NCBI GenBank assembly: GCA_963736705.1
Contig: CAVTPV010000005.1
Location: 1,391,056 to 1,455,055 of the forward strand
Length of the DNA stretch: 64,000 nucleotides
Source: an uncultured Actinomycetota bacterium
GTDB taxonomy: Bacteria > Actinomycetota > Thermoleophilia > RBG-16-64-13
Reading direction: 5' to 3'
A program made the translations under genes and the position numbers. Shown here piece after piece: positions 29,679 to 50,233 of this stretch; position 1 is the first letter of the stretch; each line of letters begins with the position of its first letter. The notes beneath the pieces are model-generated. The model worked only from the letters and a program-made list of their open reading frames with translations, ran no database searches and had not been told where the DNA came from.

Positions 29679-29690
29679 CGGGCCACGAGC

Positions 29691-30421: not shown

Positions 30422-30447
30422 CACTTTACCTTCGCCCAACGTAAACT
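30418..30447 (+). promoter_or_regulatory. sigma-70-like promoter (TTGACA - 18 nt - TAAACT) overlapping the recX stop
   Basis: TTGACA at 30418-30423 and TAAACT at 30442-30447. Confidence 0.5.
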
Positions 30448-30454
30448 TCACGCT

Positions 30455-30687
30455 TGTGTGATGATCGGTCGACAGCGATGACGCGCGACCTTGCCTTTTG
30501 GCTATAGATTGCTCTGTAAGTCGGCGAATCCGGCGAAGACGCCGGGGCCGAAGACTTAGATAGCGGGGAACATAACCGTGCGGGGGCTGCTGATGAAGCC
30601 GCAGGACCGCCGGTAGGGGCTGTCCCTCTCTGTAGGGCGAGGTCATTGGTGTAGAGTTTGTCGGCCGGACGCGTGTTCGGCTTTTTT
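30455..30687 (+). ncRNA. candidate structured RNA, about 230 nt: rny 5' leader/attenuator or independent sRNA (family not recognised)
   Basis: Non-coding, lower-GC stretch bounded by the promoter and an intrinsic terminator. Several local hairpins (for example CGGCG-AAGA-CGCCG) and a long-range helix, 30465-30474 with 30659-30668. Confidence 0.35.
30664..30687 (+). terminator. intrinsic terminator upstream of rny
   Basis: GCCGGAC / GTTCGGC 7-bp stem (one G-U pair), GCGT loop, then TTTTTT (30682-30687). Confidence 0.65.
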
Positions 30688-30764
30688 GATGCCCGCGATC
30701 GGTCTTCGCACGCATGACTTAGCAAACCGCGACGCCGCGTGTGGACTGGAATGGTGATGTCAAG

Positions 30765-32307: not shown

Positions 32308-32334
32308 TCCCGGGGTGGTCCTGCGGTGAGCAGG

Positions 32335-35568: not shown

Positions 35569-35593
35569 CGGTCAGAGAGCTAAGGAGGCGGAC

Positions 35594-36757: not shown

Positions 36758-36758
36758 C

Positions 36759-37188
36759 GTGGAACTCCAGGTCCGCCTGCTGCACCCGCAGGCCCAGATA
36801 CCCCGCAGAGCGCATCCCGGCGACGCCGGCTCGGACCTCTTCTCCGTGGAGGAGGTGGTCATCCCGGCCGGCGAGCGGCGGGCCGTGGCCACCGGCATCG
36901 CTCTGGCCATCCCGAGGGGATACGGGGGGTTCGTGCAGCCGCGCTCGGGATTGGCCTTCAAGCACGGCATCATGCTCACCAACTCGCCGGGCCTCATCGA
37001 CGCCGGCTACCGGGGCGAGCTCCGGGTGTCGCTCTACAACTCGGGCGCCGAGGACCTTCATCGTGGCCGTGGGGGAGCGGATCGCCCAGCTGGTCATCCA
37101 GCGCGTCGAGGAGCCCGACTTCGTGGTCGTGGACGAACTCGGCGAGACCAGCAGGGGCGAGGGCGGCTTCGGCAGCAGCGGGCGCTAA
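36759..37188 (+). CDS. dut: dUTP diphosphatase (1 frameshift near 37060)
   Basis: [33 protein letters not shown], ...[14 protein letters not shown] start 2 nt after the dapL stop. Confidence 0.9.
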
Positions 37189-37238
37189 GGCTGAGGGCGC
37201 GCTGCCCCTGTCCACCCGCGCCTGCCCGGCTGCTGAGA

Positions 37239-38708
37239 CTAATCCAGAACCGACATCGTGTTCGGCAGTTCCTGCCAGTTCAAGATCTGGTAGCTACCTA
37301 CGGTGGGGAAGTACGGCGGCGGGTCGTGCATGAGCCAGTCATCGTACGAATTGCTGCCGTTCGTGAATCCGCCGAGAGTCGTGCCGCTGTAGTTGACGGT
37401 GCTGCGGTAGGGCGTATGGTACGTGCTGACCGAGCCGTAGATGGTCAGCATGTCGCGGATCGGGCCGTAGTTGTCGTTGCTCTCGTCCGCAGCGTTGCAC
37501 GATTCTTTCCCCTGCTGAGCGATGAGCGCGGCGTCGATCTCCATGTCCTGCGTGGAGACGGTACCGCCCGCTCCCAGGGGCGCGTACCTGGGGATCTCCA
37601 CGTTGTTCTGCGCGATGAGCCCCACCGTGACGGTGCCGTCCTTCGCCGAGTAGGTGAGATTGCCCACTACGTGGATGGAAGTGGCCGAGTTCTTGCCCGA
37701 TGGGTTCAGCTGCCCGGAGCTGGCGATGGTGATCCGCCCGTCGAGGTCGGTGCCTTCCACCCAGACGTTGTCGTTGACGTAGATGACGCCGTTGGTGGGG
37801 TAGTCGAGCACTGTGCTCGGCACCGGGGAGGTGGGGACCACGGACGTGAGGCTTCCGCCGCTGCCGCTGGTGGTCTCGCTCTCAGCCGTCACGCGCCTGA
37901 TTTGGTACTGCTCGTTGGGCAGGAGCTTGATGTACCAGCCCTGCCTGGAATCGTGAGCGGTGCTCGTAGAGTAGGGGATGTTCACGCCGTTACCCACCGC
38001 GAGGCTGTTCAGGTTGACGAAGTCCGAGGTCACAGTCGCGAAACTGATCGCGGGTACGGGGAACTGCCAGAACTGCCGGGAGTAGTGATTGGCCGGCACG
38101 GTGGTCAGGTGGCCCGACCACACGCCGTTATGAGTGCCGCCCAAGATGCCGCTTGTGTACGTCGCCCGGGAACACGACATAGTCTCGGTGAGGTTGGCCG
38201 TGTCCGTGCAGATGCCCGTGTTCGAGAAAGTCTTGCCGTGCCAGACGCGATCGAGCGGTCCGCCGATCCACACCTCGTCGTTGGTGAGCAGCAGGTACTG
38301 GCTGAACGAGGGCCTGCCCAGCGAGGCGGTGACCGTTCTGGGGGTGTCCTCCGGACCTGTGGCCTGTCCCGTGACAGTCACGCTCACGTTAGGGTTGTTG
38401 GCGCTGGGAGGAGTCACCTGTATGGCGTACCTACCGTGGACGGAAGAGTCGAAGACGTTTGTCAGGTCGAACTCCTTGAAGAGGGGATCGGGCCCTGTGT
38501 TGCCGGCGATGGCGAAGCCGTTGCTCCTGGAACTCTCCCCACTCGCCACCATCCACAGATACTGGTTCAGGCCGGCCTCGGCCACAGTCAGCGATTGAGT
38601 GTAGGTGCGATCGCGAGATACATGCTGCTGGTTGGCAAGAGCGGATGTGAGCAGGGCGGCCGAGGAGATGCCCAGGGCCACCAGCACGAGCATCGCGAGG
38701 ATCAGCAC
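37239..38708 (-). CDS. large PilX_N/GspK-type pilin-like protein without Glu5 (set A, third gene). The real start is probably upstream (TTG about 38754) across an indel.
   Basis: The in-frame upstream residues ...WSRNEGG plus YVLILAMLVLVALGISSAALLTSALANQQHVSRDRTYTQSLTVAEAGLNQ resemble the PilX N-terminal domain. A roughly 450-aa Asn/Thr/Gly-rich beta-type domain follows. Confidence 0.7.
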   Translation of the reverse strand: MLILAMLVLVALGISSAALLTSALANQQHVSRDRTYTQSLTVAEAGLNQYLWMVASGESSRSNGFAIAGNTGPDPLFKEFDLTNVFDSSVHGRYAIQVTPPSANNPNVSVTVTGQATGPEDTPRTVTASLGRPSFSQYLLLTNDEVWIGGPLDRVWHGKTFSNTGICTDTANLTETMSCSRATYTSGILGGTHNGVWSGHLTTVPANHYSRQFWQFPVPAISFATVTSDFVNLNSLAVGNGVNIPYSTSTAHDSRQGWYIKLLPNEQYQIRRVTAESETTSGSGGSLTSVVPTSPVPSTVLDYPTNGVIYVNDNVWVEGTDLDGRITIASSGQLNPSGKNSATSIHVVGNLTYSAKDGTVTVGLIAQNNVEIPRYAPLGAGGTVSTQDMEIDAALIAQQGKESCNAADESNDNYGPIRDMLTIYGSVSTYHTPYRSTVNYSGTTLGGFTNGSNSYDDWLMHDPPPYFPTVGSYQILNWQELPNTMSVLD

Positions 38709-38773
38709 ATACCCGCCCTCGTTCCGCGACCAGGCTGGGCAGACGGCCGCCCAAGTGATAACGCGTGCGGGAT

Positions 38774-39478
38774 CTAGGCTCCACTGAGACCTCCGTTGTA
38801 TCGCTGGCGGATCTGCACTCGGGTGTCCAGGGCGACGTTGGCCTTTGGTACTCCCGGAGTCTCATTCACCCTGAGGGCGATGTCGATGGCGATGATGCTT
38901 CTCAACTCCGCCGCCGTCGTGGGGTTCGTGATCTCGACGAGGGTGTCGTTCGCGGGTATGGGATTGGTGATGTATGCCGGGTTCATCTGGTAGTACGTGA
39001 ACAGGGCTGCACTCTGGATGCCCTGCATGATGACGATGCCGTCGTTGGTGTACTCCGTGGCGTAGATGGGAGGCGCCTCGGAAGTGTCCGGGGCGAGCGT
39101 GGCCAATCTCAGAGTCGTGCCGTCGAGGTAGTAGCGGCACTTGTCGGAGAGGCCGTCACCGTTGATGTCGGCGAAGAACACGAGTTCGTCAGCCTCGGCG
39201 AGGGCGATCGCATCGGATTGCGATGAGAGGTTCGAGGCGGAGGACTCCGCCATACGCAGATAGCGGGAGATCTCATTGATAGCGTAGCGCGCGTCGTCCT
39301 GGTTGACGATGCGGTGGCTGGTGTCGGCCCACGATCTGACCAGGCTCTCGTAGACCCCGAGTATCGCCATCCCCAGGAGCCCGGCGGTCAGGCAGACCAT
39401 CAGGAGTTCGATGAGAGTGAACCCTCTGGCGCCGCGGAGCGCTTTCTTGAGATTGCGGACTAGTATGTTGCGTCTCAT
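38774..39478 (-). CDS. PilW/GspJ-like minor pilin (set A, second gene)
   Basis: MRRNILVRNLKKALRGARG|FTLIELLMVCLTAGLLGMAIL is a class III signal with Glu5. DINGDGLSD motif. Ends ...VQIRQRYNG. ATG at 39478; the longer ORF to 39652 is rejected. Confidence 0.8.
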   Translation of the reverse strand: MRRNILVRNLKKALRGARGFTLIELLMVCLTAGLLGMAILGVYESLVRSWADTSHRIVNQDDARYAINEISRYLRMAESSASNLSSQSDAIALAEADELVFFADINGDGLSDKCRYYLDGTTLRLATLAPDTSEAPPIYATEYTNDGIVIMQGIQSAALFTYYQMNPAYITNPIPANDTLVEITNPTTAAELRSIIAIDIALRVNETPGVPKANVALDTRVQIRQRYNGGLSGA

Positions 39479-39485
39479 CACGGCC

Positions 39486-41112
39486 CTACTGTCGGTTGTT
39501 GAACGTGAAGCGGTCACCGGTCCAAGTATCTGAGGTGCCGGCGGAGTTCGTGACGGTGATGTGAACCGTGGCCGTCGAGCCGTAGGCTGGGGAGACCGCC
39601 CGGATGCGGGTGGTGGACTCGACGACGAAGCTCGCGGCGTTCTTGGTGCCAAACATCACGGAGGTCACATCGACGAAGTTGGTACCGGTGATGATGACGG
39701 TGGTGCCGCCTCCCTTCCAGCCACTCGTCGGGCTGCGGGTGCCGACAGTGGGCTCGTAGACGTAGTACGAGTACTGGTCCGCGGCCACAGCGGCGGAGGT
39801 TCCGGAGGGGGTGGTGACGGTGACGTCCACGGTGCCCCAGCCGGCCGGGGATACGGCTGTGATACGGGTTGCGGAGTTCACGACGAAGCTTGATGCATCG
39901 GTGTCACCGAATTTGACCGCTGTAGCGCCGCTGAAGTTTGAACCGTTGATGACGACCGTGGTGCCACCGAAGAGGGTGCCATTGTTGGGGCTTATCGAAG
40001 TCACCGCTGGGCCGGTGGAGACGACCAGGTTGACCGTCTGGGTCTGGCCCGGATCGAGGATCACGGGGATCTTTCCGTCCGGCAGCGGAAGGAAGTCCGC
40101 ATCGACCGTAGGCGTGCTCACGCCGCCGGGAAGCTGCAGGGGAGGGTTGTGGGGGGTGACGAGCTCGATGAAGTAGGGCTGGATGGAGGTCGAGTAGCGG
40201 ATGTCCTCAAGCGTGATGTCACCGTTGGAGTCGGTGGTGCGGGTCTCGTCGTAGTCCCAGGGGCTCACGGACATGTAGCCGGTGATCCGGAGAGGGACGT
40301 TGGCGAGCGGCGCGCCGAACTGGTCGGTGAGGTGGATGTTCATGGTGGCGAGCCGGTCCATGATGAGTTGGACCACAGTGGTCACACCAGTCTCCAGCAC
40401 CAGGCCGTTCTGAAGGGCCGCGGGGTTGTAGTCGCCATAGGTGGCGCTCACGAAGTAACCGGCCTCGTCGTCCTCCGGCAGACCGGGGAGCTGCAGGTGG
40501 CCCGAGTCGTCGGTGCGGATGGAGGAGTCGTTGTAGAGCACGTTGGGGTTAAGAAGGTCGTCCCATACGACGAGGTGGGCCCCCTCGATGGGCTCACCAC
40601 TAAGGTCTGTGACCGTGATGTCGAGCGTGCCCCCTTTGGCGCCGCCCGCGACGTTGGTGCTCATGACGACCGGATCCATGCCGCTGGTGTTGAGGGGCGA
40701 CGCTCACGGTCACTCGGCGATAGTTGCCCGGGAAGGGACCCTCGTAGCTGTCGTCCGTGAAGAAGGTGATCTCGCGTTGGATCTCGAACGTGCGTCCGTC
40801 GCGGGTGACGGTCTCGACAGCCTCCAACTGACCGGCCGGGTTGCCGCCCACAGTGCCGACGTCCTGGTACTGCAGGCCGCGGATCGTTTCGATCTCCTCG
40901 GTCGCTATTTGAGCCATCAGGGAGCGAGTGTCGGAGGCCAGGACCCGCAAGGCCGTCGCGGTGAAGAAGTGCGCTATGAAGACCAGGCCGATAACCAGCA
41001 CCAAGCCGGCGACTAGGACCTCCACGAGGCTGAAGCCGTGTTCGGATGAGTCAGTGCGAGTCTCGTCGCCTGCTTGTGGCCTGACCAGTTGCCAAAGCGT
41101 GAGGGACTTCAA
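39486..41112 (-). CDS. modular PilV-like pilin with C-terminal adhesin-type modules, including 2 IPT/TIG domains (set A, first gene; 1 frameshift near 40690)
   Basis: ...SSEHG|FSLVEVLVAGLVLVIGLVF (PilV-type), pilin core ...YRRVTVSV. Next come two CarboxypepD_reg-like beta modules (GTLDITVTDLSGEPIEGAHLVV; NIHLTDQFGAPLANVPLRI), then IPT/TIG x2 at about 39501-40013. TTG 41112 lies 10 nt after AGGAGG. Confidence 0.75.
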
Positions 41113-41182
41113 GCCCAGAATGCCTCCTGCTATGTGTTTCCAGTTCAGGTATCGGCGCGACTGACGTACTTCTTTAGTCCAA

Positions 41183-42447
41183 TCAGGAGCCCTTGGGAAC
41201 CGTGTACTCCTCCCAGGTGTTCGGCACAATGTTGACGTCGATGACGTACTGGCCGTTGATGTTGTTGATGACATCCTGGTTGTAGAGGATCTCGCCGCAA
41301 CTACCATTACCCTTGTTGGTGATGGTGCCCTTGCAGTAAACAGCGCCGTGCATGGCCGACGTGCCCCTCAGCTCGTTGTCACCTACGGTGACCATGATCC
41401 CGTAGAAGTCGCCGGTCCCTTTGAAGTCCCACGCGTTCACGCTGCCGTCAGGAGTGTCGAAGACCACTACCACAGGCTCTTCTTCGGTACCCACTTGGTT
41501 GCTGCCGGCGATCTCGACGGCGGCGGTGCTCTTGATGTACACCACCTTGCCGTTGGCTTTGCCAGAGGTCAAGAACGCGGTGGCCGCCGCTTCGACGGTG
41601 CTGTAGGTCGAGCCGTTCACGGTCATGGGGAGTAGTTCGGGGGCGAAATAGCAGTGCTCGTCCTCGGCGATCTTCTTGAGCGCCATCTGAGTCTGGGTGC
41701 TCACAACGCTCTCCCAGTCGAGTGGGTGTGGCGGCGAGGACATTCTGAGGCGGTTGCGGATCGACCCCTTTGTGCAGGGCTTCGTGGACGTCGTAGTAGA
41801 TGGGAGGGGTGCCCTTTCTCGATCGACACCTGGAAGCCCTGGCCGTTGCTGTCCACCACGCCGGACCACAGGGCGAGAGTGGCCGGGAAGGAGAGCTGCC
41901 ATTGCTGCTTCTCAGCGAGTATCAGGATGCGGTGGCGGTCGTCGCCCACGTTGGCCGTGGCGTCGACAAACATGGCTCCGTCGTTGTTGGAGTCCCACTT
42001 CGGGGCACTGGGATCGGCCACTGTGGTTGTCTCGCCGGTGGCGCTGTTCACGTTGTCGTAAATGTAGACATGGAGGAAGTCGGCGGCCTGGGAGCGAGCC
42101 GGGTCGTACAGGCCCGGGTTGGCCGTCTGCAGAGCGGTCTTGAGGGCTTCCTCGGTGACGGCCGCGGTGGCGTCGTCAGTGGAGCGCCGGGGCCAGTTGA
42201 GGCGCAGCGTCAGCATGCCCGCGTCGACTCCGGCTTCGGAGACATTGAATGACTTGACGTCGATCCGCTCGGTCTCGGCGGACTGGCTCTGAGAGTGGAT
42301 GAGCCAGTATAGAGCGACGCCCAGAATCATGAAGATCATCACGAAGACCACGGCGACGACCATAGCGATGCCGTCTTCATGACCCAATCTGGTGGGACGG
42401 CGCACGTGCCTCGGCGCCTTCGGGAGGACTTGCTGTGACGTCTTCAT
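41183..42447 (-). CDS. PilX_N/GspK-type pilin-like protein without Glu5 (set B, third gene; 2 frameshifts about 41770-41815)
   Basis: ...LGHEDG|IAMVVAVVFVMIFMILGVALYWLIHSQSQSAETERIDVKSFNVSEAG resembles PilX_N. C-terminal VVVVFDTPDG...GDFYGIMVTVGDNELRGTSAMHGAVYCKG. Confidence 0.7.
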
Positions 42448-42470
42448 ATCCGATGTCTCCTCGGGACGCC

Positions 42471-43145
42471 TTAGTATTGGCGCAAGTTGCGGGGTTGGAC
42501 GGTCGAAATGAGCTCGTGCGCGATCGGGCGGTTGTTCTCGAAGATGTCGATGAATAGGCGTATCTGCACTTCGCGGATCAGGCTCGGGTCGGCGATCGGG
42601 GTGGACATGGGCTGTCCGTCCGTGCCTATGTAGGTGAAGAGGGAGGGTTTCGTGGAGCCGTTGGTGACACAGTTGCTGACCAGGCGAACGTGGTCGCCGC
42701 TGGCGAATGAGGGATCCCCGGAGTCGCTCGTGTCCCGGTAAAGCGTCTGGTTGGCGGTGTCGACCCGGAATCGGCAGAGTTCGAGATCGTGACCGGAGTC
42801 ACGATCGGCATCGGTCCAGAAGATGAGGCTGTTGCTGTCAGCAGAATATATGACGACGTTCAGGGCCTCGGTCGGCGCGGGGTCGGGCGCGCGGGAGGTG
42901 CGGATGAACTCGACCATCTCGCTCATTGCGGTCCGTGCCTGGGCCTGAGCTGCGAAGTCATCCTCGGCGAACGTATAGGTCCGTTGCAGGCCGAACCATA
43001 TGCTGTAGATGCCCCCGAGGACCACCAGCAGTATGATCATCACCACCATGAGTTCCATGAGGGTTAGGCCGGCTTGGCCCCTCGCCAGCCGGCTGCCGGC
43101 ATCGAGGCGGTCTTTGAGGTTTGAGGGTCCCATGCCGCCCGCCAT
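42471..43145 (-). CDS. PilW/GspJ-like minor pilin (set B, second gene)
   Basis: MAGGMGPSNLKDRLDAGSRLARGQAG|LTLMELMVVMIILLVVLGGIY. DADRDSGHD motif. Ends ...VQPRNLRQY. The ATG overlaps the stop of the upstream gene (TGATG). Confidence 0.8.
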   Translation of the reverse strand: MAGGMGPSNLKDRLDAGSRLARGQAGLTLMELMVVMIILLVVLGGIYSIWFGLQRTYTFAEDDFAAQAQARTAMSEMVEFIRTSRAPDPAPTEALNVVIYSADSNSLIFWTDADRDSGHDLELCRFRVDTANQTLYRDTSDSGDPSFASGDHVRLVSNCVTNGSTKPSLFTYIGTDGQPMSTPIADPSLIREVQIRLFIDIFENNRPIAHELISTVQPRNLRQY

Positions 43146-44704
43146 CAGTTGATCGTGAACACGGGGTTGGGCGTAGAGCCGGCCATGAAGGAACCGGTGG
43201 TGCTCGCACCGGTCACCGTCACCTGGTACCAGTCGCCGGAGATGACGTTCTGGTTGGTGGTCTTGTTCTTCTTGGCGGTGAACGAGTACGTAGCGTGCGC
43301 TCCCACGAACTTGACCGTGTAGCTGGTGCCCGTGTTGTTTCGGACCGAGACCGAGACCAGATGGGTGGTGGTCGTGGTGCTGGACGTGGACGTCGTGGTG
43401 CTGGACGTGGTCGTCACCGTTTCCAGAGTCGTGGTGGTGTTGGTCGGCGGGATGTAGGTCTCCGCCTGCGCGGCGGCGCCCGCATTGCCCGGGTCGCAGA
43501 CATCGACGGCCCAGAGCTGGTATTGGTAGTAGTTCTGGGTGCTCGCGTTGCCCCACGGATCGGTGTCCGATCCGACGTCGCCCACATCCTTGTAGGTGGT
43601 GAGGGCCGGGTCGAGGGCATTGGACACAGTCACCCAGGGGAACCAGCCGCTGGTCGAGTAGTCCCACTTGCGCCGTTGGAGTACCCAGTGGTCGCGGTCG
43701 CGCTCGGAGCCGCTCAGCCAGTTAAGGATGATCGTGTGGTTGTCGGTCTGAGGCGTCGCCACGAGTCCTGTAGGAGCGTCGGGATTCGTCCTTTCGACGC
43801 GCAGGCGCAGCCTCCAGGTGTTGCCGGGCTCGTTGTACTCGTTGTAGCAGACGGCCCGGCATTCCCAGTAGCCGTCGGGGACGATGGCCTCGTCGAACGT
43901 GTATTCGAACCAGACGTCTTGACAGTTGGCCACCGGCATCCTTGGTATAGCGGATGTCGCTGGTGCCGATCTTGTAGTCGCTCGCGGCACTGCCCAAGGG
44001 CACGGCCTGGCCCTGCGTCGTCGATCATGGCGGCGCGCATGTAGACGTTGCGCGCTGTGGGGGTGGACGCGGTCAGATCGTAGAAGATCAGCGCCCAGTC
44101 GGCCTGTGCCACATAGTACTTGAGGGTGGTGTTGTGAGTGTTCTGGAGGAGTCGTGAACGGAGATCCAAGCGGATCCGTGGCGGTGGGGGTGACGTCAAG
44201 GCTCGAGCCGCGCGGTCCTAGGAACTGCTGGTGGACCAGAGTGGTGACGGAGGCCGGTGAGACCCGAGGGGGAGCCTCCCAGCCGACGTTGACGGTCACC
44301 TCTTTGAGCGTTCCTTCTTGGTACGTCTGGTTGTTGACCACGTAGGTGACGGTGAAGCCCTGGTCGCGGACCGTCTCACTCGTGCCAAAAAGGCTCTCCA
44401 GCGTCCTGGTGCCCAGTGAGGCGTCTGACGTCTTTCATCTGCTCCGTGTAGATCTCGCGGTAGTCGAGCTGCCGGACCAGTTCCATCTTCTGCCTGGCGA
44501 CGTTGGTCGCGATGGAGCGCATGCGGATGGTGGAAGCTTGTGTGAGGCCGGTCACGAAGAGCGGCACAATGCCGGCCATGGCGATCAGGAGTATGACGGC
44601 GGCGACCATGACCTCGATGAGGGTCATGCCGCGATTTGCCGCGGATCTTGCGAGCCGTGGATGCCTGTGATGGAGTGGGCGGTTGAGAAAGAAGCGAAGC
44701 GCAT
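43145..44704 (-). CDS. modular PilV/GspI-like pilin with FN3 domain, Thr/Ser-rich linker and C-terminal beta domain (set B, first gene; about 4-5 frameshifts)
   Basis: MRFASFSTAHSITGIHGSQDPRQ..RG|MTLIEVMVAAVILLIAMAGIV, pilin core ...GFTVTYVV...LKEVTVNVGWE. FN3-like APTGLVATPQTDNHTIILNWL...YYQYQLWAVD at about 43487-43783. TNTTTTLETVTTTSSTTTSTSSTTTTT at about 43364-43447. GAAGGAG precedes ATG 44704. Confidence 0.7.
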
Positions 44705-44986
44705 CTTGTCTCCTTCGCTTCGTTGCAGAAGGTATCGGCAGGAGGCGGGCGGTTCTTTAGCCGGTCGGTCGGCAAGCAGTCTGTATAGGGGCGCGACGCG
44801 CGGGCGCGCGAGCCTGGCCGTTCGTCCAGGCCAAATTCGGACGAAAGTCGTAAAAGAAATCCTAATGTCCGGTCGCACACTGGCCGATGTATTCAGCGAC
44901 ACGTCAATACCGGCGTGTTGGGCCAGCGAAATGTTCGCGGCCCAGAGTAAAAAAGGGTCGCGAACACAAGAGGAGGAACACAAGGA

Positions 44987-45485
44987 ATGTTCACAAAGAT
45001 CCAAAAGAGGATGAAGGGCGAAAAAGGTTTCACCCTCATCGAACTCCTGGTGGTGATCATCATCATCGCCATCCTGGCCGCGATCGCCATCCCGACCTTC
45101 CTGGGCCAGCGTTCCAAAGCCCAGGACGCGAGCGCCAAATCGCTCGTCCGCAATGCCATGACCGCCATGGAATCCGCCTATGTCGACAGCCGCACATACG
45201 ACCCCACGACCGTTGACGCTGATGTTCTGAACGCCATCGAACCGTCTATCACCTTCGCCGCTGACGACGCCGCAGTCGCCGTTGGTGGCGGACACCCCTG
45301 CCATCACGGCCACCGCTGAGGCCGACGACGAGACCGTTGACTACTTCGGTACTGACGATAGCTACTCGATCGCCACCGTGTCTCTGTCCGGCAACCTGTT
45401 CGGTGTTGCTGCCGTCAAGAGCTCCGACGGCACCACCGAGTTCGTCAAGCAGATCGGCGACGGCGACGTGACCGTCGGCTGGTAG
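44987..45485 (+). CDS. type IV major pilin paralog 1 (1 frameshift near 45290)
   Basis: MFTKIQKRMKGEKG|FTLIELLVVIIIIAILAAIAIPTFLGQRSKAQDASAKSLVRNA... Ends ...GDGDVTVGW. GAGGAGG/AAGGA lies upstream. Confidence 0.85.
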
Positions 45486-45508
45486 CCTCTACTAGCTCCA
45501 GACCTTCC

Positions 45509-45534
45509 GTGGGGCCCCGTCATCGGGGCCCCAC
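45509..45534 (+). terminator. strong hairpin directly after pilin 1
   Basis: Perfect 11-bp stem GTGGGGCCCCG / CGGGGCCCCAC with a TCAT loop. No U-tract follows. Confidence 0.55.
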
Positions 45535-45646
45535 GCATGTCAACCGAACAGAGACGGAGGATGGGTAGGGCAAGATGACGACGGCGGCAACAGTGCAGAC
45601 GAGCATCGGCTCCCGGGTAGGACGGTAGAACGTCCTGGCTGGGATC

Positions 45647-46226
45647 GTGGTCATGGTAGTTCTTGCCGCTGTCGCTCTTCTCGTTGCGGGGTGTTCGGAC
45701 CTGGTGTCCCAGGCTCAAGACGCCGAATCGGCCGGAGACCTCAAGACGGCCGAAGCCCTCTACCAGGAGCAATTGCAGTCTCGATCCCGACGATCTCTCC
45801 GCCATCAAGGGCCTTGCTGGGATCCTGTACATGGAGCGGAGGTGGAACGAGGCGCTTCCCGTCCAGCAGAAGGCGATCACTCTCGATGCCAAAGAGGCCC
45901 AGATCCGCGTTGAACTGGGCTTCAACTATTTGAACCATCAGGATGCACCGGCCAATGCAGTGGCCGCGCTCCTGGAAGCCTGTGCGCTGGAGCCTACCGC
46001 TCAGTACTTCAGTTTTCTAGCGCAAGCGCAGGTGGCTTTGGATGACCGGAGTGGGGCAGAGACGAGTCTGCGCCGTGCCGTGGAGGCCGACAAGATGTAC
46101 GGCCGAGCGTACGCCCTTCTGATCTCACTTCTGGAGGAGGACGGCAAGACAGCTGAAGCAGCCGAAGTGCGCGCGACAGCTGATGCCGAAGGGGTCTCCC
46201 TGGAGTCCCCGGTCACGACCTCGTGA
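45647..46226 (+). CDS. TPR-repeat lipoprotein between the two pilin genes (1 frameshift near 45780; may start at ATG 45575 if the in-frame TAG at 45626 is an error)
   Basis: Lipobox LLVAGC|SD. TPR-like helices: GDLKTAEALYQEQLQLDPDDLSAIKGLAGILYMERRWNEALPVQQKAITLD..., ...AETSLRRAVEADKMYGRAYALLISLLEEDGKTAEA. Confidence 0.65.
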
Positions 46227-46269
46227 CCATCGCGTGGATGAAACCGAGCCGCGGAAGGAGGGTGCGGCT

Positions 46270-46815
46270 ATGAAGACCGTTAGAAACGATGGGGTGGAAG
46301 GCGTCACTCAGAGGATGATCCGCCGGCTGCGCAACGGGATGAGCGCGCAGCGGGGGTTCACCCTTATCGAGCTCCTGGTGGTGATCATCATCATCGCAGT
46401 ACTCGCGTCCATCGCTATCCCGACTTTCATGGGACAGCGGTTGCACGCGCAGGATGCGGCCGCCTATTCGCTGGTCCGGAACGCTCTGACCGCTATTCAG
46501 GGCGCTTTCGTCGATACCGGCGACTACAGAGACATCACCGTGGATCAGCTGACGCAGATCGAGCCGAGCATCACCTTCATTCTCAGTGATGAAAGCCTGG
46601 TCACCACCGATCCCGCCGCGATCACCGCGGAAGTCCCAGCGCAGGCGCGCGATCACGAAGTGGCTTTCTACGCCGAGAGCAAGAACCTTATAGACGTCGC
46701 CTGTGTTAGCGATAGCGGGAACCTGTTCGGCGTCCAATTGAACACCGTGAACATCACCGACAGTGGTTATGTCAAGGTGAAAGTCGTCGAGGAAGAGGCC
46801 AGCCTGGGCTGGTAG
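46270..46815 (+). CDS. type IV major pilin paralog 2
   Basis: Intact. ...RNGMSAQRG|FTLIELLVVIIIIAVLASIAIPTFMGQRLHAQDAAAYSLVRNA... Ends ...EEEASLGW. GGAAGGAGGG lies upstream. ATG 46315 is an alternative start. Confidence 0.85.
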   Translation: MKTVRNDGVEGVTQRMIRRLRNGMSAQRGFTLIELLVVIIIIAVLASIAIPTFMGQRLHAQDAAAYSLVRNALTAIQGAFVDTGDYRDITVDQLTQIEPSITFILSDESLVTTDPAAITAEVPAQARDHEVAFYAESKNLIDVACVSDSGNLFGVQLNTVNITDSGYVKVKVVEEEASLGW

Positions 46816-46943
46816 CCGGCCGGCGCCTCACGACAGCGCGTGTCTACGCTCGGGCATGTCCGCGCCCGGGCTGGACCGCCGCCATACCAGAATACGACCT
46901 AAGTAGCACGCCTGTTTCCCTCTTGGGCGTCTAGGCTTGGCCC

Positions 46944-47471
46944 ATGGAACGGCAAGCCCTCCTTACGCACAAGTGTTCGCGGCATCTCTGCCGCCACCCC
47001 TTCTTGCCCGCCGCTCAGGCCGGGCACACCCTCATCGAAGTAGTCACTGTTCTGTCCCTTCTCGGGCTGTGCTTTGTAGTAGGCGGAGCTTTCCTTGCTC
47101 GAGGCCTTGGCGCGGTGGAGGCTCGAGGCGCCGCCCAGGATTGGCAGGCGGCCGCGGCATGGGCGCAGGCGACGGCGATATGGCAAGGATCCGGCACCGA
47201 CATCGAGTTCGAATCGGGCAACGTGTCGGTGAATGCGGGAGCGGGCTCGAGTGGCGGGGACCTTGGAGCAGCGGCGCCCGCGGTGGATGTGGCTGTCAAC
47301 GTGGTCCGCTGGGAATCTGGCCGAGGAGTCGTGGTCCGTTTCACGGGCGGCACCGGTGCGCCGAACGCCGCGGGGTCGCTCTATTTCAAGGCTCCCGGCT
47401 ATGCCCAGCGGGTCACCGTGCGCTTGGAGAGCGGGTTGACCACTCGGGTGCGTGTTGAGGCCGGGCCATGA
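46944..47471 (+). CDS. GspH/FimT-like minor pilin (set C, first gene)
   Basis: ...AAQAG|HTLIEVVTVLSLLGLCFVVGGAFL is a class III signal with Glu5. 175 aa, intact. Confidence 0.7.
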   Translation: MERQALLTHKCSRHLCRHPFLPAAQAGHTLIEVVTVLSLLGLCFVVGGAFLARGLGAVEARGAAQDWQAAAAWAQATAIWQGSGTDIEFESGNVSVNAGAGSSGGDLGAAAPAVDVAVNVVRWESGRGVVVRFTGGTGAPNAAGSLYFKAPGYAQRVTVRLESGLTTRVRVEAGP

Positions 47472-48196
47472 GCCCGCGGGGCCAACGGGGCACGATACTG
47501 CTCGAAGTCCTCGTCGCAGTCGTACTGGTCGGACTGGTGGTGGGACCGCTCGCCACGGTGCTCGCCGGGCTCGTCGGACAGGCCCGGGCTGTGCGGGTGG
47601 CGGGAAGCGGCCGTTCGGTGGCCGACCGGGACGCGGGGAACGGACTCGAAGGGTGGGGGCCGCGTGTCGCGGCGGCGTCCTGGAGGCCCGGGCCGGTGCT
47701 GCGGCTGGCCACCGACCTGGCGGGGAGCCAGGACGGCGTCGAGGCCGTCGTGGGAATCTGGGTCGATGGGTGGGTCGTGGGGGAGATCCCGCTGGGCGCC
47801 GAAGATGGCGAGGCAGGGGTCCTGGGGCAGGTGACCGTTCCGGCCTCGGTGTGGAGTGGTCTTGCAGGAGGAGAAGCGGTGCTACGTGTGCGCACGGGGT
47901 CGGGGGCTTGGGGGCCTCCGTGGCGCTCGGCCGTGCCCGGGGTGGATGGGGCCGCTCCGCCCGTCGGCACGCTCTCGGGCGCGGAGCCGGCGGAGCCCAC
48001 CGCGGTGGTCCACAGGCCCGGCGCCGGCACCTCCAAGTTGACTGTCTCGTGGGCGGCCGCCCCGTTGTCCGCGCCGCCCTTCCCGCTGCTGTTCCGGGCG
48101 AGCGCTTCCGTGCAGGGCTGGGGCGAGGCGGCTCTCGATGGTGGTTCCCAGTGGTGGTGGATAGAGGAGGGGCGCAGTGTCGACGTCTACTACTGA
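47468..48196 (+). CDS. GspI/PilV-like minor pilin (set C, second gene)
   Basis: MSPRGQRG|TILLEVLVAVVLVGLVVGPL. ATGA overlap with the upstream stop. 242 aa, intact. Confidence 0.65.
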   Translation: MSPRGQRGTILLEVLVAVVLVGLVVGPLATVLAGLVGQARAVRVAGSGRSVADRDAGNGLEGWGPRVAAASWRPGPVLRLATDLAGSQDGVEAVVGIWVDGWVVGEIPLGAEDGEAGVLGQVTVPASVWSGLAGGEAVLRVRTGSGAWGPPWRSAVPGVDGAAPPVGTLSGAEPAEPTAVVHRPGAGTSKLTVSWAAAPLSAPPFPLLFRASASVQGWGEAALDGGSQWWWIEEGRSVDVYY

Positions 48197-48770
48197 GGCC
48201 GGCTTCTCGCTCATCGAGCTTCTGCTCGGCCTGGCTCTGTCCTTGTGTCTGGCGCTGGGTCTGGCCCCCGTGTGGGTGTCGTTCCAGGCGGTGGCGTCCG
48301 AGGAGGGGGATCGCACCGTGTGGCTGGCGCAGGCCCGGGTCGCCACCGCCCGGCTCGAGCGGGATGTGCGGGTGGCGGGGTTCGAGGCATGCCCCTTCCC
48401 CAACTCCAGCATCGTTCTGCAGGCCGGCCCATCCCAAGTGGTGATGCTCACGCGGCCCGGAGGGTCCGGCGCGACGGTCCTGGTGGAGTGGGAACTGGTC
48501 AACGGCACGCTGATGAGGCGTTGGGGCGGTTGTCCGGCCCTCCGTCCGGCGGCGTTTCCCCATTCTCTGTACAGCGACAACAAGACGATGCTCGAGAGGG
48601 TGGATACCGCCGGGTCGTCGTTCTCGTACCGGGTGGCGGGCAGGGAAGTGGCCTTGCCCGAGATCGACGATCTGGCATCCATCGATGAGGTGTCGGTGAG
48701 GCTCGCCGAGAAGGCTGATGCAACGACCGGCGCCTCAACGGTGACGGCCGCGGCGTTGGTGGGGCGATGA
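48177..48770 (+). CDS. GspJ/PilW-like minor pilin (set C, third gene)
   Basis: MSTSTTEAG|FSLIELLLGLALSLCLALGL..., ...ARLERDVRVAG... 197 aa, intact. Confidence 0.7.
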   Translation: MSTSTTEAGFSLIELLLGLALSLCLALGLAPVWVSFQAVASEEGDRTVWLAQARVATARLERDVRVAGFEACPFPNSSIVLQAGPSQVVMLTRPGGSGATVLVEWELVNGTLMRRWGGCPALRPAAFPHSLYSDNKTMLERVDTAGSSFSYRVAGREVALPEIDDLASIDEVSVRLAEKADATTGASTVTAAALVGR

Positions 48771-49755
48771 GGAGACTGATGCCGGCGGCGCGAAAGGGCG
48801 CGGCCGCCGAGCAGGGCGCGATACTACTGTTCGTGTTGTTCGTGGCGGTGGCGCTTGCCGTGCTGGCGCAGGCCTTGTCGGTGGCGGTGGTCTCGGTCCA
48901 GCGCGCCAGAGACGCCGAGAATACCGGGCGCGACCTGCTGGCCGAGAAGGGGCTGGCGCTCCTGGGCGAGCGCGACCGCCTTCTGGCGGAGTGGGCGCCT
49001 CACGAGTGGTCGCCGGTCGACGACGGGATGTCCGAAGTGAGCACGCTGGTGGAGACGATCCCCGATGGCGGCGAATGGGCTCTCGATGCGTCGGCGACGC
49101 ACGCACCGGAGACGTCCCCGCTTGTCCTTTCAGCGTGGGTGGAGCGTGGACGGGATGGTCTCGACCTGCCGATCGCCGGTCTCGTCGCCTCGGGTGCCAC
49201 GTGGACCGAGGGGCGGGAGACCGCCTGCGTGGACGCGGAGACCGCAGCCGCGGCCAGGCCGGCGGCCTGGCTGGTGGAGGAGCCGGATGATCTGCCGATG
49301 GGCGCCGGCCTGGAGGGCGGGTCTCTGGATGGGTCCTGGGGTCTGGGACGACGGTTGGGAAGGCCTGTTTGCGCGCTTTGACCAGGGAGCCGCGCCGGAC
49401 GGCTTTGGCCTCGGCCGCTCGGTCACCGTGGTGTCGGGCGAGCAAGGGCCAGACGGTGGCGTGGCCGCAGGGCCTGGCCGGGGAAGCCGGCGCCCCGACG
49501 CTTCTGGTGGTGATCGGCGGGGCGGATCTGAACGCGGCCGGTCTCGGGGACGTGTACGCGGTCGTGGTGTGCGACGGGGGAGGGGTTTCTCTGGAGGGCA
49601 CGCGTGTGCATGGTGGAGTCTTCGCGTCAGGGGAGGTGGATTTCGGGTCCACCGGAACGGTGTTGTTCGCTTCGGACATCGTCAGGTGGGCGGCTGACCG
49701 CTCCCTGTTGCGGGCGCGTCTGGTGCCGGGCAGTAGGAGGGAGGCGGTCGAGTGA
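48767..49755 (+). CDS. GspK/PilX-like pilin-like protein without Glu5 (set C, fourth gene; 2 frameshifts about 49340-49460)
   Basis: ...AAEQG|AILLFVLFVAVALAVLAQALSVAVVSVQRARDAENTGRD. C-terminal LLVVIGGADL...VYAVVVCDGGGVSLEGTRVHGGVFASG. ATGA overlap with the upstream stop. Confidence 0.65.
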
Positions 49756-49771: not shown

Positions 49772-50182
49772 ATGGACAAACGTTCTCGCATCTCCGACAA
49801 GTTCGTCGCGTGGAGGCGGCGCCTTCAGCGCACCCGGCTGGAATGCCGGGAGTGCGAGGTCATCTGCGAGAGGGTCGTCTCGCCTCAGCACTGCTTGGAT
49901 ACCGGCTGCAGTGCCGTCTATGTCTACGAGGACGACGACACGAAGATGTTCGGCTGCGTGCACAAGGTCTTCGCTCCCGAGCTGGACCTGTCAGTCTTCG
50001 AGCAGCGGCGGGGCCGGGCCCGGGGGGCGGACGTCTACGGCACCCTGAAGCTCTATCACTCGCCGCGGCGCCAGTGCAAAGTCACGGTGGAGCAGGGCTA
50101 TCCGGCCGCCGCGTCGACGCCTTGTCTGCAGCAATCCGACCTTCTATCCACCAACCAGCGGGCACTCCGGACGCAAGGATGA
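49772..50182 (+). CDS. small Cys-rich hypothetical protein
   Basis: ATG 49772 inside ORF 49604..50182. MDKRSRISDKFVAWRRRLQRTRLECRECEVICERVVSPQHCLDTGCSAVYVYEDDDTKMFGCVHKVF. Six Cys in the first 62 residues. No family recognised. Confidence 0.45.
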   Translation: MDKRSRISDKFVAWRRRLQRTRLECRECEVICERVVSPQHCLDTGCSAVYVYEDDDTKMFGCVHKVFAPELDLSVFEQRRGRARGADVYGTLKLYHSPRRQCKVTVEQGYPAAASTPCLQQSDLLSTNQRALRTQG

Positions 50183-50233
50183 AGCTCACCACGAACCTTC
50201 CCCCGGATCCTCAGCCTCAAGACTGACTGGAGC

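What the first reader, a model, noticed from the sequence alone, without database searches (positions are those of the whole stretch)
37239..49755. Pilin-only super-locus: two major pilins plus three ordered minor-pilin sets, with no assembly machinery in cis
Seen in sequence: of the 14 ORFs between dut and rnz, 12 begin with a type IV pilin-like N-terminus. Nine carry the class III signal G|(F/M/L/H/T)xxxE followed by about 20 hydrophobic residues. On the minus strand these are RG|FTLIELL (start 39478), HG|FSLVEVL (41112), AG|LTLMELM (43145) and RG|MTLIEVM (44704). On the plus strand they are KG|FTLIELL (44987), RG|FTLIELL (46270), AG|HTLIEVV (46944), RG|TILLEVL (47468) and AG|FSLIELL (48177). 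Three more have the same helix but no Glu5 (GG|YVLILAML, DG|IAMVVAVV, QG|AILLFVLF), which is the hallmark of PilX_N/GspK-type subunits. The order gives three sets, each V/I-like -> W/J-like -> X/K-like. Sets B (44704-41183) and A (41112-37239) lie in tandem on the minus strand. Set C (46944-49755) is on the plus strand, preceded by an H/FimT-like gene and linked by ATGA/overlapping stop-starts. Established knowledge: FimU-PilVWX and GspHIJK complexes prime filament assembly and cap the tip, and Myxococcus xanthus uses three alternative minor-pilin/PilY1 clusters. Inference: a filament machine encoded elsewhere could be primed by three interchangeable tip complexes. Here the complexes lack PilY1, and in two of them adhesin modules sit on the V-like subunit. 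To my knowledge a contiguous triple-set, PilY1-less arrangement like this has not been characterised.
Basis: partly seen in the sequence, partly recalled or inferred. Interest (0 to 1): 0.78.

Follow-up and report, generated by a model that had tools for sequence, protein, structure and literature searches.

The report
Pilin island with three minor-pilin sets
This stretch of an uncultured soil actinobacterium (Thermoleophilia/Gaiellales-like) encodes only the building blocks of type IV pili: two main pilins and three separate sets of tip or starter subunits, each ending in a bulky beta-solenoid cap, which extends to a little-studied phylum a design already described in Thermus, cyanobacteria, Myxococcus and Saccharibacteria.

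Summary
Nine class III prepilin signals (G|xxxxE) occur in the 64 kb window, all inside 39.4-48.2 kb, against about 0.12 expected by chance. Three more ORFs have the Glu5-less PilX-type helix. No PilB or PilC is present in the window.

Comparative genomics shows a conserved pilin island between dapF-aminotransferase-dut and rnz in many Thermoleophilia/Gaiellales MAGs. The island always holds pilin1, a TPR lipoprotein, pilin2 and set C (H-I-J-K-like). It also holds set A, set B, or both. One JGI contig has exactly the window's gene order, with intact ORFs.

- **Set homology:** the W/J-like subunits of all three sets are homologous over their full length.
- **Cap subunits:** A-X and B-X are predicted with high confidence to be pilin plus beta-solenoid proteins. 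A-X's only significant PDB match is the Thermus tip pilin ComZ.
- **Link to a pilus machine:** in CPR bacteria, a homologous V-W-X trio lies directly downstream of pilB-pilC.
- **Frameshifts:** they are as frequent in recA, miaB and dapF as in the pilin genes, so they are assembly errors.

The concept is already published: several PilY1-less minor-pilin sets, with beta-solenoid PilX or ComZ as the cap. This is a new variant in Actinomycetota. Whether the sets are alternatives, and whether the genome has the machinery, could not be tested.

The parts
37239..38784 (-). A-X: Glu5-less PilX_N-type cap pilin with a large beta-solenoid domain (about 515 aa). One frameshift near 38720. The GTG start overlaps the A-W stop.
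   Evidence: More than 150 homologs at 47-85% identity. AF2 model pLDDT 88.9. The only significant PDB fold hit is ComZ 6QVI, E 2.6e-9. Its N-terminus is homologous to that of B-X. Start mapped.
38774..39478 (-). A-W: PilW/GspJ-position minor pilin (234 aa, intact), leader ...RGARG|FTLIELL.
   Evidence: N_methyl. 81% identical to the L004 ortholog. hhalign to B-W gives E 1.4e-57 and to C-J E 4.9e-13, both full length. The profile matches the alpha1 helix of solved pilins.
39486..41112 (-). A-V: modular PilV/GspI-position pilin (about 540 aa) with Ig-like modules, including 2 TIG domains. One frameshift near 40697.
   Evidence: N_methyl and TIG x2, E 2.3e-20. The ortholog has a weak PilV TIGR02523 hit, E 1.9e-5. 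Frameshift mapped. C-terminal modules vary among orthologs.
41183..42447 (-). B-X: PilX_N-type cap pilin with an ice-binding-protein/ComZ-like beta-solenoid (about 420 aa). Two frameshifts at 41745-41805.
   Evidence: PilX_N E 7e-4. 117 homologs, some with precomputed PF14341 or PF10833. AF2 model of the 78%-identical P0124, pLDDT 92.1. Fold hits 3UYV 9.6e-4, 4NU2 and 6QVI 3e-3.
42471..43145 (-). B-W: PilW/GspJ-position minor pilin (224 aa, intact). Its ATG overlaps the B-V stop (TGATG).
   Evidence: N_methyl 26.8 bits, above the gathering score. Full-length homology to A-W and C-J. 59% identical to the L017 ortholog.
43145..44704 (-). B-V: GspI/PilV-position pilin with an approximately 400-aa C-terminal extension (Thr-rich linker, no recognised domain). 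At least 3 frameshifts. Start unresolved.
   Evidence: N_methyl 29.3 bits. The ortholog L017 B-V has a GspI TIGR01707 hit, E 9.9e-5, over positions 1-96 of 101. hhalign to the A-V N-domain gives 97.5%. Frameshifts. No in-frame start.
44987..45485 (+). pilin1: major-pilin candidate (about 160 aa), leader MFTKIQKRMKGEKG|FTLIELL, strong SD. One frameshift near 45260-45280.
   Evidence: N_methyl 37.4 bits. 87% identical to the L004 ortholog. SD seen. Present in 1-3 copies in every island.
45647..46226 (+). TPR lipoprotein (lipobox LVAGC). One frameshift. Conserved between the two major pilin genes.
   Evidence: TPR hits. N-terminus read. Position conserved in every island.
46270..46815 (+). pilin2: second major-pilin paralog (181 aa, intact).
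   Evidence: N_methyl 36.2 bits. hhalign pilin1 against pilin2, E 1e-84. 62% identical to the L004 ortholog.
46944..47471 (+). C-H: GspH/FimT/ComGD-like minor pilin.
   Evidence: Pfam GspH E 0.0023, below the gathering score. The ortholog hits TIGR01708 at 2.4e-5 and ComGD at 1.2e-3.
47468..48196 (+). C-I: minor pilin in the GspI/PilV position (242 aa). ATGA overlap with C-H.
   Evidence: N_methyl, sub-threshold. Conserved in every locus that carries set C. Only the alpha1 helix matches A-V and B-V.
48177..48770 (+). C-J: minor pilin homologous to A-W and B-W (PilW/GspJ position).
   Evidence: hhalign 97.9% and 97.5% over 189-201 columns. N_methyl, sub-threshold.
48767..49755 (+). C-K: Glu5-less cap subunit (about 330 aa). 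One frameshift between 49225 and 49453. Its C-terminal approximately 90 aa are homologous to the end of the B-X solenoid.
   Evidence: tblastn to the L004 C-K. hhalign B-X against C-K gives 95.4%, E 1.7e-8. No Pfam hit.
49772..50226 (+). Small Cys-rich ORF (about 150 aa, one frameshift), always between C-K and rnz. Probably a flank gene and not a pilus part.
   Evidence: Adjacent to rnz in all loci checked that show this end of the island. No Pfam hit.

Best explanation
The region is a chromosomal pilin island of a Thermoleophilia/Gaiellales-like actinobacterium. It supplies all the structural subunits of a type IVa-like pilus, and the motor, platform and peptidase are encoded elsewhere.

**Contents**
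- Two paralogous major pilins flank a TPR lipoprotein.
- Three operons encode minor-pilin complexes.
- Set C is a four-member GspH-I-J-K-like set.
- Sets A and B are three-member V-W-X sets. Their V subunit carries a long C-terminal extension (Ig-like TIG modules in A-V).
- The last gene of each set encodes a Glu5-less PilX_N-type subunit. In A-X and B-X this subunit has a large triangular beta-solenoid of the ComZ / ice-binding-protein type.

**Proposed mechanism**
1. A prepilin peptidase processes the subunits.
2. Each X-W-V (with or without H) complex assembles through its alpha1 helices on the platform. It primes polymerisation of a major pilin and ends up at the filament tip.
3. At the tip, the solenoid caps or plugs the filament in place of PilY1. 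Together with the V modules, it provides the binding surface.
4. The three sets are most likely alternative tip complexes that give functionally different pili. For example, one could take up DNA, as with ComZ, and others could adhere.

**Shown:** the sequence signals, the homologies between sets, the predicted folds, lineage-wide conservation, cassette-like presence or absence of sets A and B, and physical linkage of a homologous V-W-X trio to pilB-pilC in CPR bacteria.

**Inferred:** processing, complex formation, tip location, the substitution for PilY1, and alternative rather than joint use.
For: - **Signal motif:** 9 sites against 0.12 expected, all inside the region.
- **Profile hits:** N_methyl, PilX_N, GspH and TIG. 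Weak GspI, PilV, GspH and ComGD hits on intact orthologs.
- **Pilin helix:** the W-like profile matches the alpha1 helix of solved type IV pilins, E down to 4e-6.
- **Between-set homology:** A-W~B-W E 1.4e-57. A-W~C-J E 4.9e-13. B-W~C-J E 4.9e-12. A-V~B-V 97.5%. A-X~B-X N-terminus 90-92%. B-X~C-K C-terminus 95.4%.
- **Cap folds:** A-X model pLDDT 88.9, matched to ComZ 6QVI at E 2.6e-9. B-X model pLDDT 92.1, matched to ice-binding-protein solenoids and ComZ.
- **Conservation:** more than 150 A-X homologs and 117 B-X homologs.
- **Synteny:** the island is fixed between dut and rnz. It carries A only, B only or A+B (window; JGI contig; L017).
- **CPR linkage:** CPR loci read pilB(T2SSE)-pilC(T2SSF)-V(N_methyl+CarboxypepD_reg+Ig)-W-X.
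- **Operon structure:** overlapping stops and starts.
- **Published mechanism for the closest systems:** PMC6561018, 10.64898/2026.02.12.705559, PMC7541494.
Against: - No PilB, PilC, PilD or PilM was seen in the window, nor within 10 kb of about 35 related loci. The rest of the source genome could not be searched, so the machine is assumed.
- Sets A and B lack an H-like subunit.
- The W/J and C-I assignments rest on position and on paralogy between sets. They do not rest on matches to GspJ, PilW or GspI profiles.
- The global TM-scores to ComZ are low (0.24-0.29), and there is no sequence-level match.
- No multimer model, expression data or filament data exist.
- Nothing here distinguishes alternative use from joint use of the sets.
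Confidence: 0.6

Rival explanations
1. Composite tip. Set C (H-I-J-K) is the one universal priming complex for all pili. Sets A and B are accessory tip or adhesin modules that are added to it, or depend on it, and are not independent primers.
For: - Only set C has an H-like adaptor.
- Set C travels with the major pilins in every island seen, whereas A and B come and go or sit elsewhere in the genome.
- Core plus accessory minor pilins are known in S. sanguinis (PMC8179133).
Against: - In CPR loci the V-W-X trio alone follows pilB-pilC, with no H-I-J-K set nearby.
- Each trio has its own J-like subunit and its own K-like cap. These would compete for the same positions as C-J and C-K.
Confidence: 0.25
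2. Competence reading. At least set A is a DNA-uptake tip receptor like Thermus PilA2/ComZ, so part of the island serves natural transformation and not adhesion or motility.
For: - The only significant PDB match of A-X is ComZ, a DNA-binding tip pilin essential for transformation (PMC6561018).
- Cyanobacterial 'Com' sets have beta-solenoid PilX (10.64898/2026.02.12.705559).
Against: - The similarity is at fold level only, with 10-11% identity and no sequence hit.
- The same solenoid fold serves polysaccharide or EPS adhesion in cyanobacterial PilX-EPS.
- A-V carries Ig/TIG modules typical of adhesins.
- ComEA, ComEC and DprA were not examined.
Confidence: 0.2
3. Decaying locus. The many frameshifts mean that sets A and B, and especially set B, are pseudogenes and no longer function.
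For: B-V has at least 3 frame changes, B-X has 2, and A-V, A-X, pilin1 and C-K have 1 each.
Against: - Essential genes in the same window are hit at least as often: 16 frame changes in about 9.8 kb of dut, dapF, miaA, miaB, rny, recX, recA and rnz, against about 10 in 12.5 kb here.
- A JGI contig with the same gene order has intact ORFs.
- Orthologs are conserved at 47-85% identity.
Confidence: 0.03
4. Secretion pseudopilus. The island encodes the pseudopilins of a type II secretion-like or Com-like short pseudopilus, and not an extended surface pilus.
For: - Weak best hits are to T2SS pseudopilin models (GspH, GspI) and to ComGD/ComGE.
- JGI names some homologs PulG.
Against: - There are two 146-160-aa mature major pilins with globular domains, and large tip modules (TIG, solenoid) that suit exposure outside the cell.
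- The host is an actinobacterium with no sign of a secretin.
- Thermus and CPR minor pilins also resemble pseudopilins yet belong to true pili (PMC6561018, PMC11623550).
Confidence: 0.05

Closest known systems
Thermus thermophilus pilA1-pilA2-pilA3-comZ-pilA4 locus (ComZ tip pilin, PDB 6QVI; PMC6561018)
   Same: - It is a locus of pilin-like genes (pilA1-4 plus comZ).
- Its minor pilins resemble T2SS pseudopilins.
- Its last, largest subunit lacks canonical pilin features and inserts a triangular beta-solenoid into a GspK-like pilin fold.
- A-X's only significant PDB match is ComZ, and B-X matches ComZ and the same ice-binding-protein folds.
   Different: - Thermus has one set and the window has three.
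- There is no detectable sequence similarity, and global TM-scores are only 0.24-0.29.
- Thermus is a diderm with a secretin.
- The V subunits here carry Ig-like modules.
- DNA binding was not tested here.
Cyanobacterial Com and EPS core minor-pilin sets with beta-solenoid PilX (bioRxiv 10.64898/2026.02.12.705559)
   Same: - One genome holds several FimT-PilW-PilV-PilX-type sets that prime distinct filaments on a shared machine.
- There is no PilY1, and the PilX beta-solenoid is proposed as the tip plug.
- The solenoid resembles ice-binding proteins.
   Different: - Cyanobacteria have two sets, each with four members. Here there are three sets, and two of them lack the FimT/H member.
- The phylum and envelope differ.
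- Here the sets are contiguous with both major pilins.
- Homology to the cyanobacterial families was not tested.
Myxococcus xanthus three minor-pilin/PilY1 clusters (PMC7541494, PMC8833165)
   Same: Three alternative sets of minor pilins prime the same T4aP machine and sit at the tip.
   Different: - Each Myxococcus set has four minor pilins plus a PilY1 beta-propeller protein.
- Here there is no PilY1, and the X subunit carries the bulky domain.
Saccharibacteria (TM7x) T4P-1/T4P-2 PilV-PilW-PilX sets (PMC11623550)
   Same: - The gene order is V-W-X, with a large PilX that lacks a canonical PilD signal.
- There are two pilus types in one cell.
- Saccharibacteria and Paceibacterota MAG loci hold a V-W-X trio whose X is 25% identical to A-X (tblastn E 2e-27). 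In the Paceibacterota locus the V has the same pilin plus CarboxypepD_reg/Ig build.
   Different: - In CPR the trio follows pilB-pilC in cis. Here no machinery is linked.
- TM7x PilX1 and PilX2 are described with jelly-roll and beta-propeller domains.
- Whether the MAG loci found here correspond to TM7x locus one was not tested.
Streptococcus sanguinis modular minor pilins PilB/PilC (PMC8179133)
   Same: A pilin domain is fused to bulky adhesin modules in a monoderm bacterium, and there are two major pilins.
   Different: - The modules differ: vWA and lectin there, TIG/Ig-like here.
- The S. sanguinis pil locus contains the machinery.
T2SS GspH-GspI-GspJ-GspK pseudopilus tip
   Same: - Set C has the order H-I-J-K.
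- The last subunit lacks Glu5.
- There are weak GspH and GspI profile hits.
   Different: - All hits are below the curated cut-offs.
- There is no GspJ or GspK profile match.
- The cap has a beta-solenoid where GspK has an alpha-helical insertion.

Membership tests
Type IV pilin (class III signal / N_methyl, PF07963) | Gly at -1, Glu at +5 and an approximately 20-residue hydrophobic alpha1-N helix after a short basic leader | tested here: met
   Nine ORFs carry it. Pfam N_methyl is above the gathering score for pilin1, pilin2, B-V and B-W and sub-threshold for the other five. The W-like profile matches the alpha1 helix of solved pilins. G-1 and E+5 are conserved in orthologs.
PilX_N / GspK-type cap subunit (PF14341) | Pilin-like N-terminal helix without Glu5, with a match to the PilX_N profile | tested here: inconclusive
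   Glu5 is absent in A-X, B-X and C-K. PilX_N scores 14.5 bits for A-X and 19.9 bits for B-X, against a cut-off of 25.5, and C-K has no hit. Several B-X family members carry precomputed PF14341.
ComZ-like beta-solenoid tip pilin | Pilin fold with a large triangular beta-solenoid inserted before the last strand | tested here: met
   The A-X model matches 6QVI at E 2.6e-9, prob 1.0. B-X matches 6QVI at 3e-3 and ice-binding-protein solenoids at about 1e-3. In the DSSP string of A-X, a final strand at 483-490 follows the beta-rich domain. The insertion point was not checked on coordinates, and TM-scores are only 0.24-0.29.
ComZ-like beta-solenoid tip pilin | Sequence homology to ComZ, and DNA binding with PilA2 | tested here: not met
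   A profile of 65 A-X sequences finds no PDB chain at E<=10. DNA binding cannot be tested with these tools.
GspH/FimT/FimU minor pilin | Match to the PF12019 or TIGR01708 profile at the curated cut-off | tested here: inconclusive
   C-H scores 18.9 bits on PF12019 against a cut-off of 21. Its ortholog scores 24.4 on TIGR01708 against 80, and 19.3 on ComGD against 70. Sets A and B have no such gene.
GspI/PilV minor pilin | Match to the TIGR01707 or TIGR02523 profile at the curated cut-off | tested here: inconclusive
   The B-V ortholog scores 22.8 on gspI against 44.35, covering positions 1-96 of 101. The A-V ortholog scores 25.2 on PilV against 52.2. C-I has no hit beyond N_methyl.
GspJ/PilW minor pilin | Match to a GspJ or PilW profile, or to that fold | tested here: not met
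   No Pfam or NCBIfam hit beyond N_methyl. The PDB profile search matches only the alpha1 helix. No structure model was made. The assignment rests on gene position and on full-length homology among A-W, B-W and C-J.
PilY1/PilC tip adhesin | Large beta-propeller protein encoded with the minor pilins | tested here: not met
   No such Pfam hit in any ORF of the region, nor in the called genes of related islands.
Complete type IV pilus system | PilB-type ATPase and PilC platform encoded near the pilins | tested here: not met
   No T2SSE Walker A or His box, and no tblastn match to PilB or PilC, in the window or in the Thermoleophilia-type loci. They are present only in the CPR loci.
Complete type IV pilus system | PilB, PilC, PilD and PilM/N/O somewhere in the same genome | not testable with these tools
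Alternative priming complexes (Myxococcus / cyanobacteria type) | Each set alone supports pilus assembly on a shared machine | not testable with these tools
   This needs genetics or multimer modelling. The only support is comparative: sets A and B occur independently of each other.

The most novel reading that the evidence does not exclude
A monoderm actinobacterial lineage (Thermoleophilia/Gaiellales) runs one type IVa-like pilus machine with three alternative, PilY1-independent tip complexes. Each is capped by a different beta-solenoid PilX/ComZ-type subunit. Two of them are H-less V-W-X trios that share ancestry with the CPR/Patescibacteria pilus and are swapped in and out, cassette-like, at a fixed chromosomal site between dut and rnz. 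The three tips would give three functionally distinct filaments (for example DNA uptake, or adhesion through Ig-like modules) built from two major pilins.
Probability: 0.3. Interest if true: 0.6.

Novelty: new variant of a known kind. Interest (0 to 1): 0.45.

Why it matters
Type IVa-like pili of Actinomycetota are essentially uncharacterised. I found no paper on them in Thermoleophilia or Gaiellales.

This locus shows that an abundant soil lineage conserves a full pilin repertoire with three tip sets. It also shows that beta-solenoid PilX/ComZ-type caps, recently proposed as PilY1 substitutes in cyanobacteria and Thermus, extend to Actinomycetota and link by homology to the CPR pilus. That supports a general PilY1-independent way of priming and capping type IV pili.

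The locus also gives two large protein families that no Pfam or NCBIfam model matched in these scans (A-X with more than 150 members, B-X with 117). Both have confident structure models and could be tested for DNA or polysaccharide binding.

It is not a new principle. The value is breadth and a clean comparative system: genomes with A only, B only, or both.

Tried and rejected
1. **Pseudogene reading: rejected.** Frame changes are as dense in recA, miaB, dapF and rnz as in the pilin genes, and an intact twin locus exists.
2. **Retrieving the source contig: failed.** An exact look-up of P0001 found nothing. Cluster listing gave no accession.
3. **Looking for machinery near relatives: nothing found.** I used regex and tblastn on about 720 kb of related loci, plus gene tables around eight other A-X or B-X loci. 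PilB and PilC appear only in the CPR loci.
4. **Third homolog search with a CPR PilB, reading the source genome by its contig-length fingerprint: considered, not run.** The hits would be swamped by CPR sequences.
5. **Sequence-profile searches of PDB.** A-X found nothing. The W-like profile found only the alpha1 helix.
6. **Promoter and terminator consensus scan: no better than shuffles.** This is expected for a high-GC actinobacterium.
7. **hhalign A-X against C-K: no significant match.** A-X and C-K are linked only through B-X.
8. **Literature search for Thermoleophilia or Gaiellales pili: nothing relevant.**
9. **The small Cys-rich ORF as a pilus gene: set aside.** It always travels with rnz.

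Full report
**1. What is in the sequence**

The window is 66% G+C. Around the region it carries a typical actinobacterial housekeeping run: nusA, infB, rbfA, truB, ribF, rpsO, pnp, dapB, RNase J, ftsK, recA, recX, rny, miaB, miaA, dapF, an aminotransferase and dut. I read this from the translations and confirmed dut through recA by tblastn.

Fourteen genes lie between dut (36759-37190) and rnz (50237-51175).
- On the minus strand: A-X, A-W, A-V, B-X, B-W and B-V.
- On the plus strand: pilin1, a TPR lipoprotein, pilin2, C-H, C-I, C-J, C-K and a small Cys-rich ORF.

A regular expression for the class III prepilin signal finds nine sites in the six-frame translation of the whole window. Shuffled sequence gives 0.11-0.125 sites on average and never more than 2.

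Pfam results:
- N_methyl is recognised in all nine. It is above the gathering score in pilin1, pilin2, B-V and B-W, and below it in the rest.
- PilX_N is weak in A-X and B-X.
- GspH is weak in C-H.
- Two TIG domains are found in A-V.

Three further proteins (A-X, B-X, C-K) have the same hydrophobic helix after Gly but no Glu5. Stop and start codons overlap (ATGA, TGATG, GTG inside the stop region) within each set. The corrections are listed under the observation check.

**2. The frameshifts are assembly errors**

I used intact orthologs as guides.
- The pilin region has about ten frame changes in 12.5 kb.
- Ten housekeeping genes next to it have sixteen in about 9.8 kb. These include recA, miaB (4), dapF, recX, rny and rnz.

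The exact A-X protein is on record from a 1.78-Mb contig. The closest genomes are long-read MAGs. A JGI contig has the same gene order with uninterrupted ORFs. I treat the genes as functional.

**3. The locus is a conserved island with cassette-like sets**

A-X has more than 150 homologs at 47-85% identity and B-X has 117. Where sources give names, they say Thermoleophilia, Gaiellales, Actinomycetota or Actinobacteria MAGs.

In at least 13 loci the island lies between dapF-aminotransferase-dut and the small ORF-rnz. The invariant core is pilin1 (1-3 copies), the TPR lipoprotein, pilin2 and C-H-I-J-K. The variable part is as follows.
- The closest relative (83% A-X identity, uncultured Gaiellales MAG) has set A only.
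- L037 and the closed Thermoleophilia genome FR_37 have set B at this site. In FR_37, set A sits 2 Mb away as a stand-alone trio.
- The window, a 39.8-kb JGI contig and L017 have both.

Stand-alone trios occur in unrelated contexts. The 'triple' arrangement is real and recurrent. It is one state of a modular system.

**4. The three sets are built from equivalent parts**

Profile-profile comparison gave these results.
- A-W and B-W are homologous over their full length (E 1.4e-57).
- Both are homologous to C-J over about 190-200 columns (E about 5e-13 and 5e-12).
- A-V and B-V share the N-terminal pilin domain (97.5%).
- A-X and B-X share the N-terminal helix and the SxxVAEAG segment (90-92%).
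- B-X and C-K share the C-terminal approximately 90 residues (95.4%, E 1.7e-8).
- pilin1 and pilin2 are paralogs (E 1e-84).

On intact orthologs, NCBIfam gives weak hits that are consistent with position.
- B-V hits GspI, covering nearly the whole model.
- A-V hits PilV.
- C-H hits GspH and ComGD.

None reaches a curated cut-off. No GspJ or PilW profile matches the W-like proteins. The V/I, W/J and X/K labels are therefore analogies supported by order, size and paralogy. They are not demonstrated memberships.

**5. The cap subunits are beta-solenoid pilins**

A-X, modelled with 65 sequences, has pLDDT 88.9 and pTM 0.81. It shows a long N-terminal helix, a four-stranded sheet, a large beta-rich domain and a final strand. 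Its only significant PDB match is ComZ of Thermus thermophilus (6QVI; E 2.6e-9, prob 1.0, TM 0.24-0.29). There is no sequence-level match.

B-X was modelled on a 78%-identical full-length homolog with 103 sequences. It has pLDDT 92.1. It matches ice-binding-protein beta-solenoids (3UYV, 4NU2 and others, E about 1e-3) and ComZ (3e-3).

The ComZ paper describes just this combination. ComZ has a GspK-like pilin fold with a triangular solenoid that resembles the ice-binding protein 4NU2. That paper argues on steric grounds that ComZ sits at the tip, and shows that it binds DNA and PilA2 (PMC6561018).

A 2026 preprint finds the same build in all cyanobacterial PilX proteins. It proposes that the solenoid replaces PilY1 as the tip plug. 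It also shows two minor-pilin sets priming two kinds of filament (10.64898/2026.02.12.705559).

**6. Link to a pilus machine**

No PilB or PilC is present in the window or within 10 kb of any Thermoleophilia-type locus examined.

The genome scan also found distant A-X relatives (25% identity, E 2e-27) in Saccharibacteria and Paceibacterota MAGs. In the Paceibacterota locus, Pfam-scanned, the order is pilB (T2SSE+MshEN), pilC (T2SSF), a V-like pilin with CarboxypepD_reg and Ig modules, a W-like pilin, and the X homolog. The two Saccharibacteria loci carry close pilB and pilC homologs just upstream of their pilin genes. This ties the trio to a type IV pilus machine by gene linkage in another phylum.

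V-W-X sets with a large PilX that lacks a PilD signal are described experimentally in Saccharibacteria TM7x (PMC11623550).

Pilin loci separate from the machinery are ordinary. Examples are the Thermus pilA1-4/comZ locus and some Gram-positive bacteria (PMC3244431). 'No machinery in cis' is therefore true but not surprising. Whether the source genome has the machinery could not be tested.

**7. Most likely mechanism**

See the best explanation. Subunits processed by a prepilin peptidase form X-W-V (with or without H) complexes through their alpha1 helices. These complexes prime polymerisation of pilin1 or pilin2 on a platform encoded elsewhere and remain at the tip. There the solenoid caps the filament and, with the Ig-like modules of V, binds the target.

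I consider alternative use of the three sets the best reading, for three reasons.
- Sets A and B are gained and lost independently.
- Each set has its own J-like and K-like member.
- There are precedents in Myxococcus (PMC7541494) and cyanobacteria.

A composite tip built on set C is a serious rival, because only set C has an H-like subunit and it always accompanies the major pilins.

**8. Novelty and score**

The kind of system is known. The new points are these.
- The phylum.
- Three sets, two of them H-less trios with a modular V subunit.
- The fixed island with cassette-like content.
- The homology to the CPR trio.
- Two large protein families that no Pfam or NCBIfam model matched, each now with a confident model.

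I rate it a new variant of a known kind, with interest 0.45.

Noticed in passing
window 45647-46226: A TPR lipoprotein (lipobox LVAGC) sits between the two major pilin genes in every island seen. TPR lipoproteins act as secretin pilotins in diderms, so its role in an actinobacterium is unclear.
   Followed up: partly
window 49772-50226: A small Cys-rich ORF of about 150 aa (CxxC...C...C motifs, no Pfam hit) is always found between C-K and rnz, 13-90 nt from rnz on the same strand. It is probably a flank gene of rnz rather than a pilus component.
   Followed up: partly
window 28000-37200 and 50237-51175: Housekeeping genes carry about 1.6 frame changes per kb relative to orthologs (recA 1, miaB 4, dapF 2, recX 2, rnz 3). 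The assembly is rich in indel errors throughout.
   Followed up: yes
window 12466-14340: A secreted protein has an IPT/TIG domain 45% identical to the TIG modules of A-V, followed by three repeats of about 115 aa. It may share a module pool with the pilin adhesin.
   Followed up: no
L036 2924-4675 (Thermoleophilia FR_37, GCA_027493445.1): A 583-aa Wzy_C+TPR protein lies inside the pilin island, between set C and the major pilin. From my own knowledge, Wzy_C is the family of the pilin O-oligosaccharyltransferases PglL and TfpO, which would suggest pilin glycosylation in a relative. It is absent from the window.
   Followed up: no
L033-L035 (Saccharibacteria and Paceibacterota MAGs), about 4.5-11.4 kb: pilB-pilC-V-W-X operon-like clusters were found. 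The X is 25% identical to A-X, and in L034 the V has the same pilin plus CarboxypepD_reg/Ig architecture. This points to a shared origin of the actinobacterial and CPR minor-pilin trio.
   Followed up: partly
L011, L013, L016, L020, L023, L027 versus window, L006, L030, L032: Set A is inverted relative to dut between two groups of genomes. In one group it is colinear with dut and the pilins. In the other it is divergent from the pilins.
   Followed up: partly
L039 4594-7302 and 16180-17040; L040 7573-9279: One stand-alone set A trio (L039) is flanked by GAF-GGDEF-HD and PAS-GGDEF genes, which hints at c-di-GMP control. In a distant set B-type locus (L040) the V-like pilin carries a PASTA domain instead of Ig modules.
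   Followed up: no
window 44970-44987: pilin1 is preceded by a strong Shine-Dalgarno sequence (AAGAGGAGGAAC), consistent with a highly expressed major pilin.
   Followed up: no
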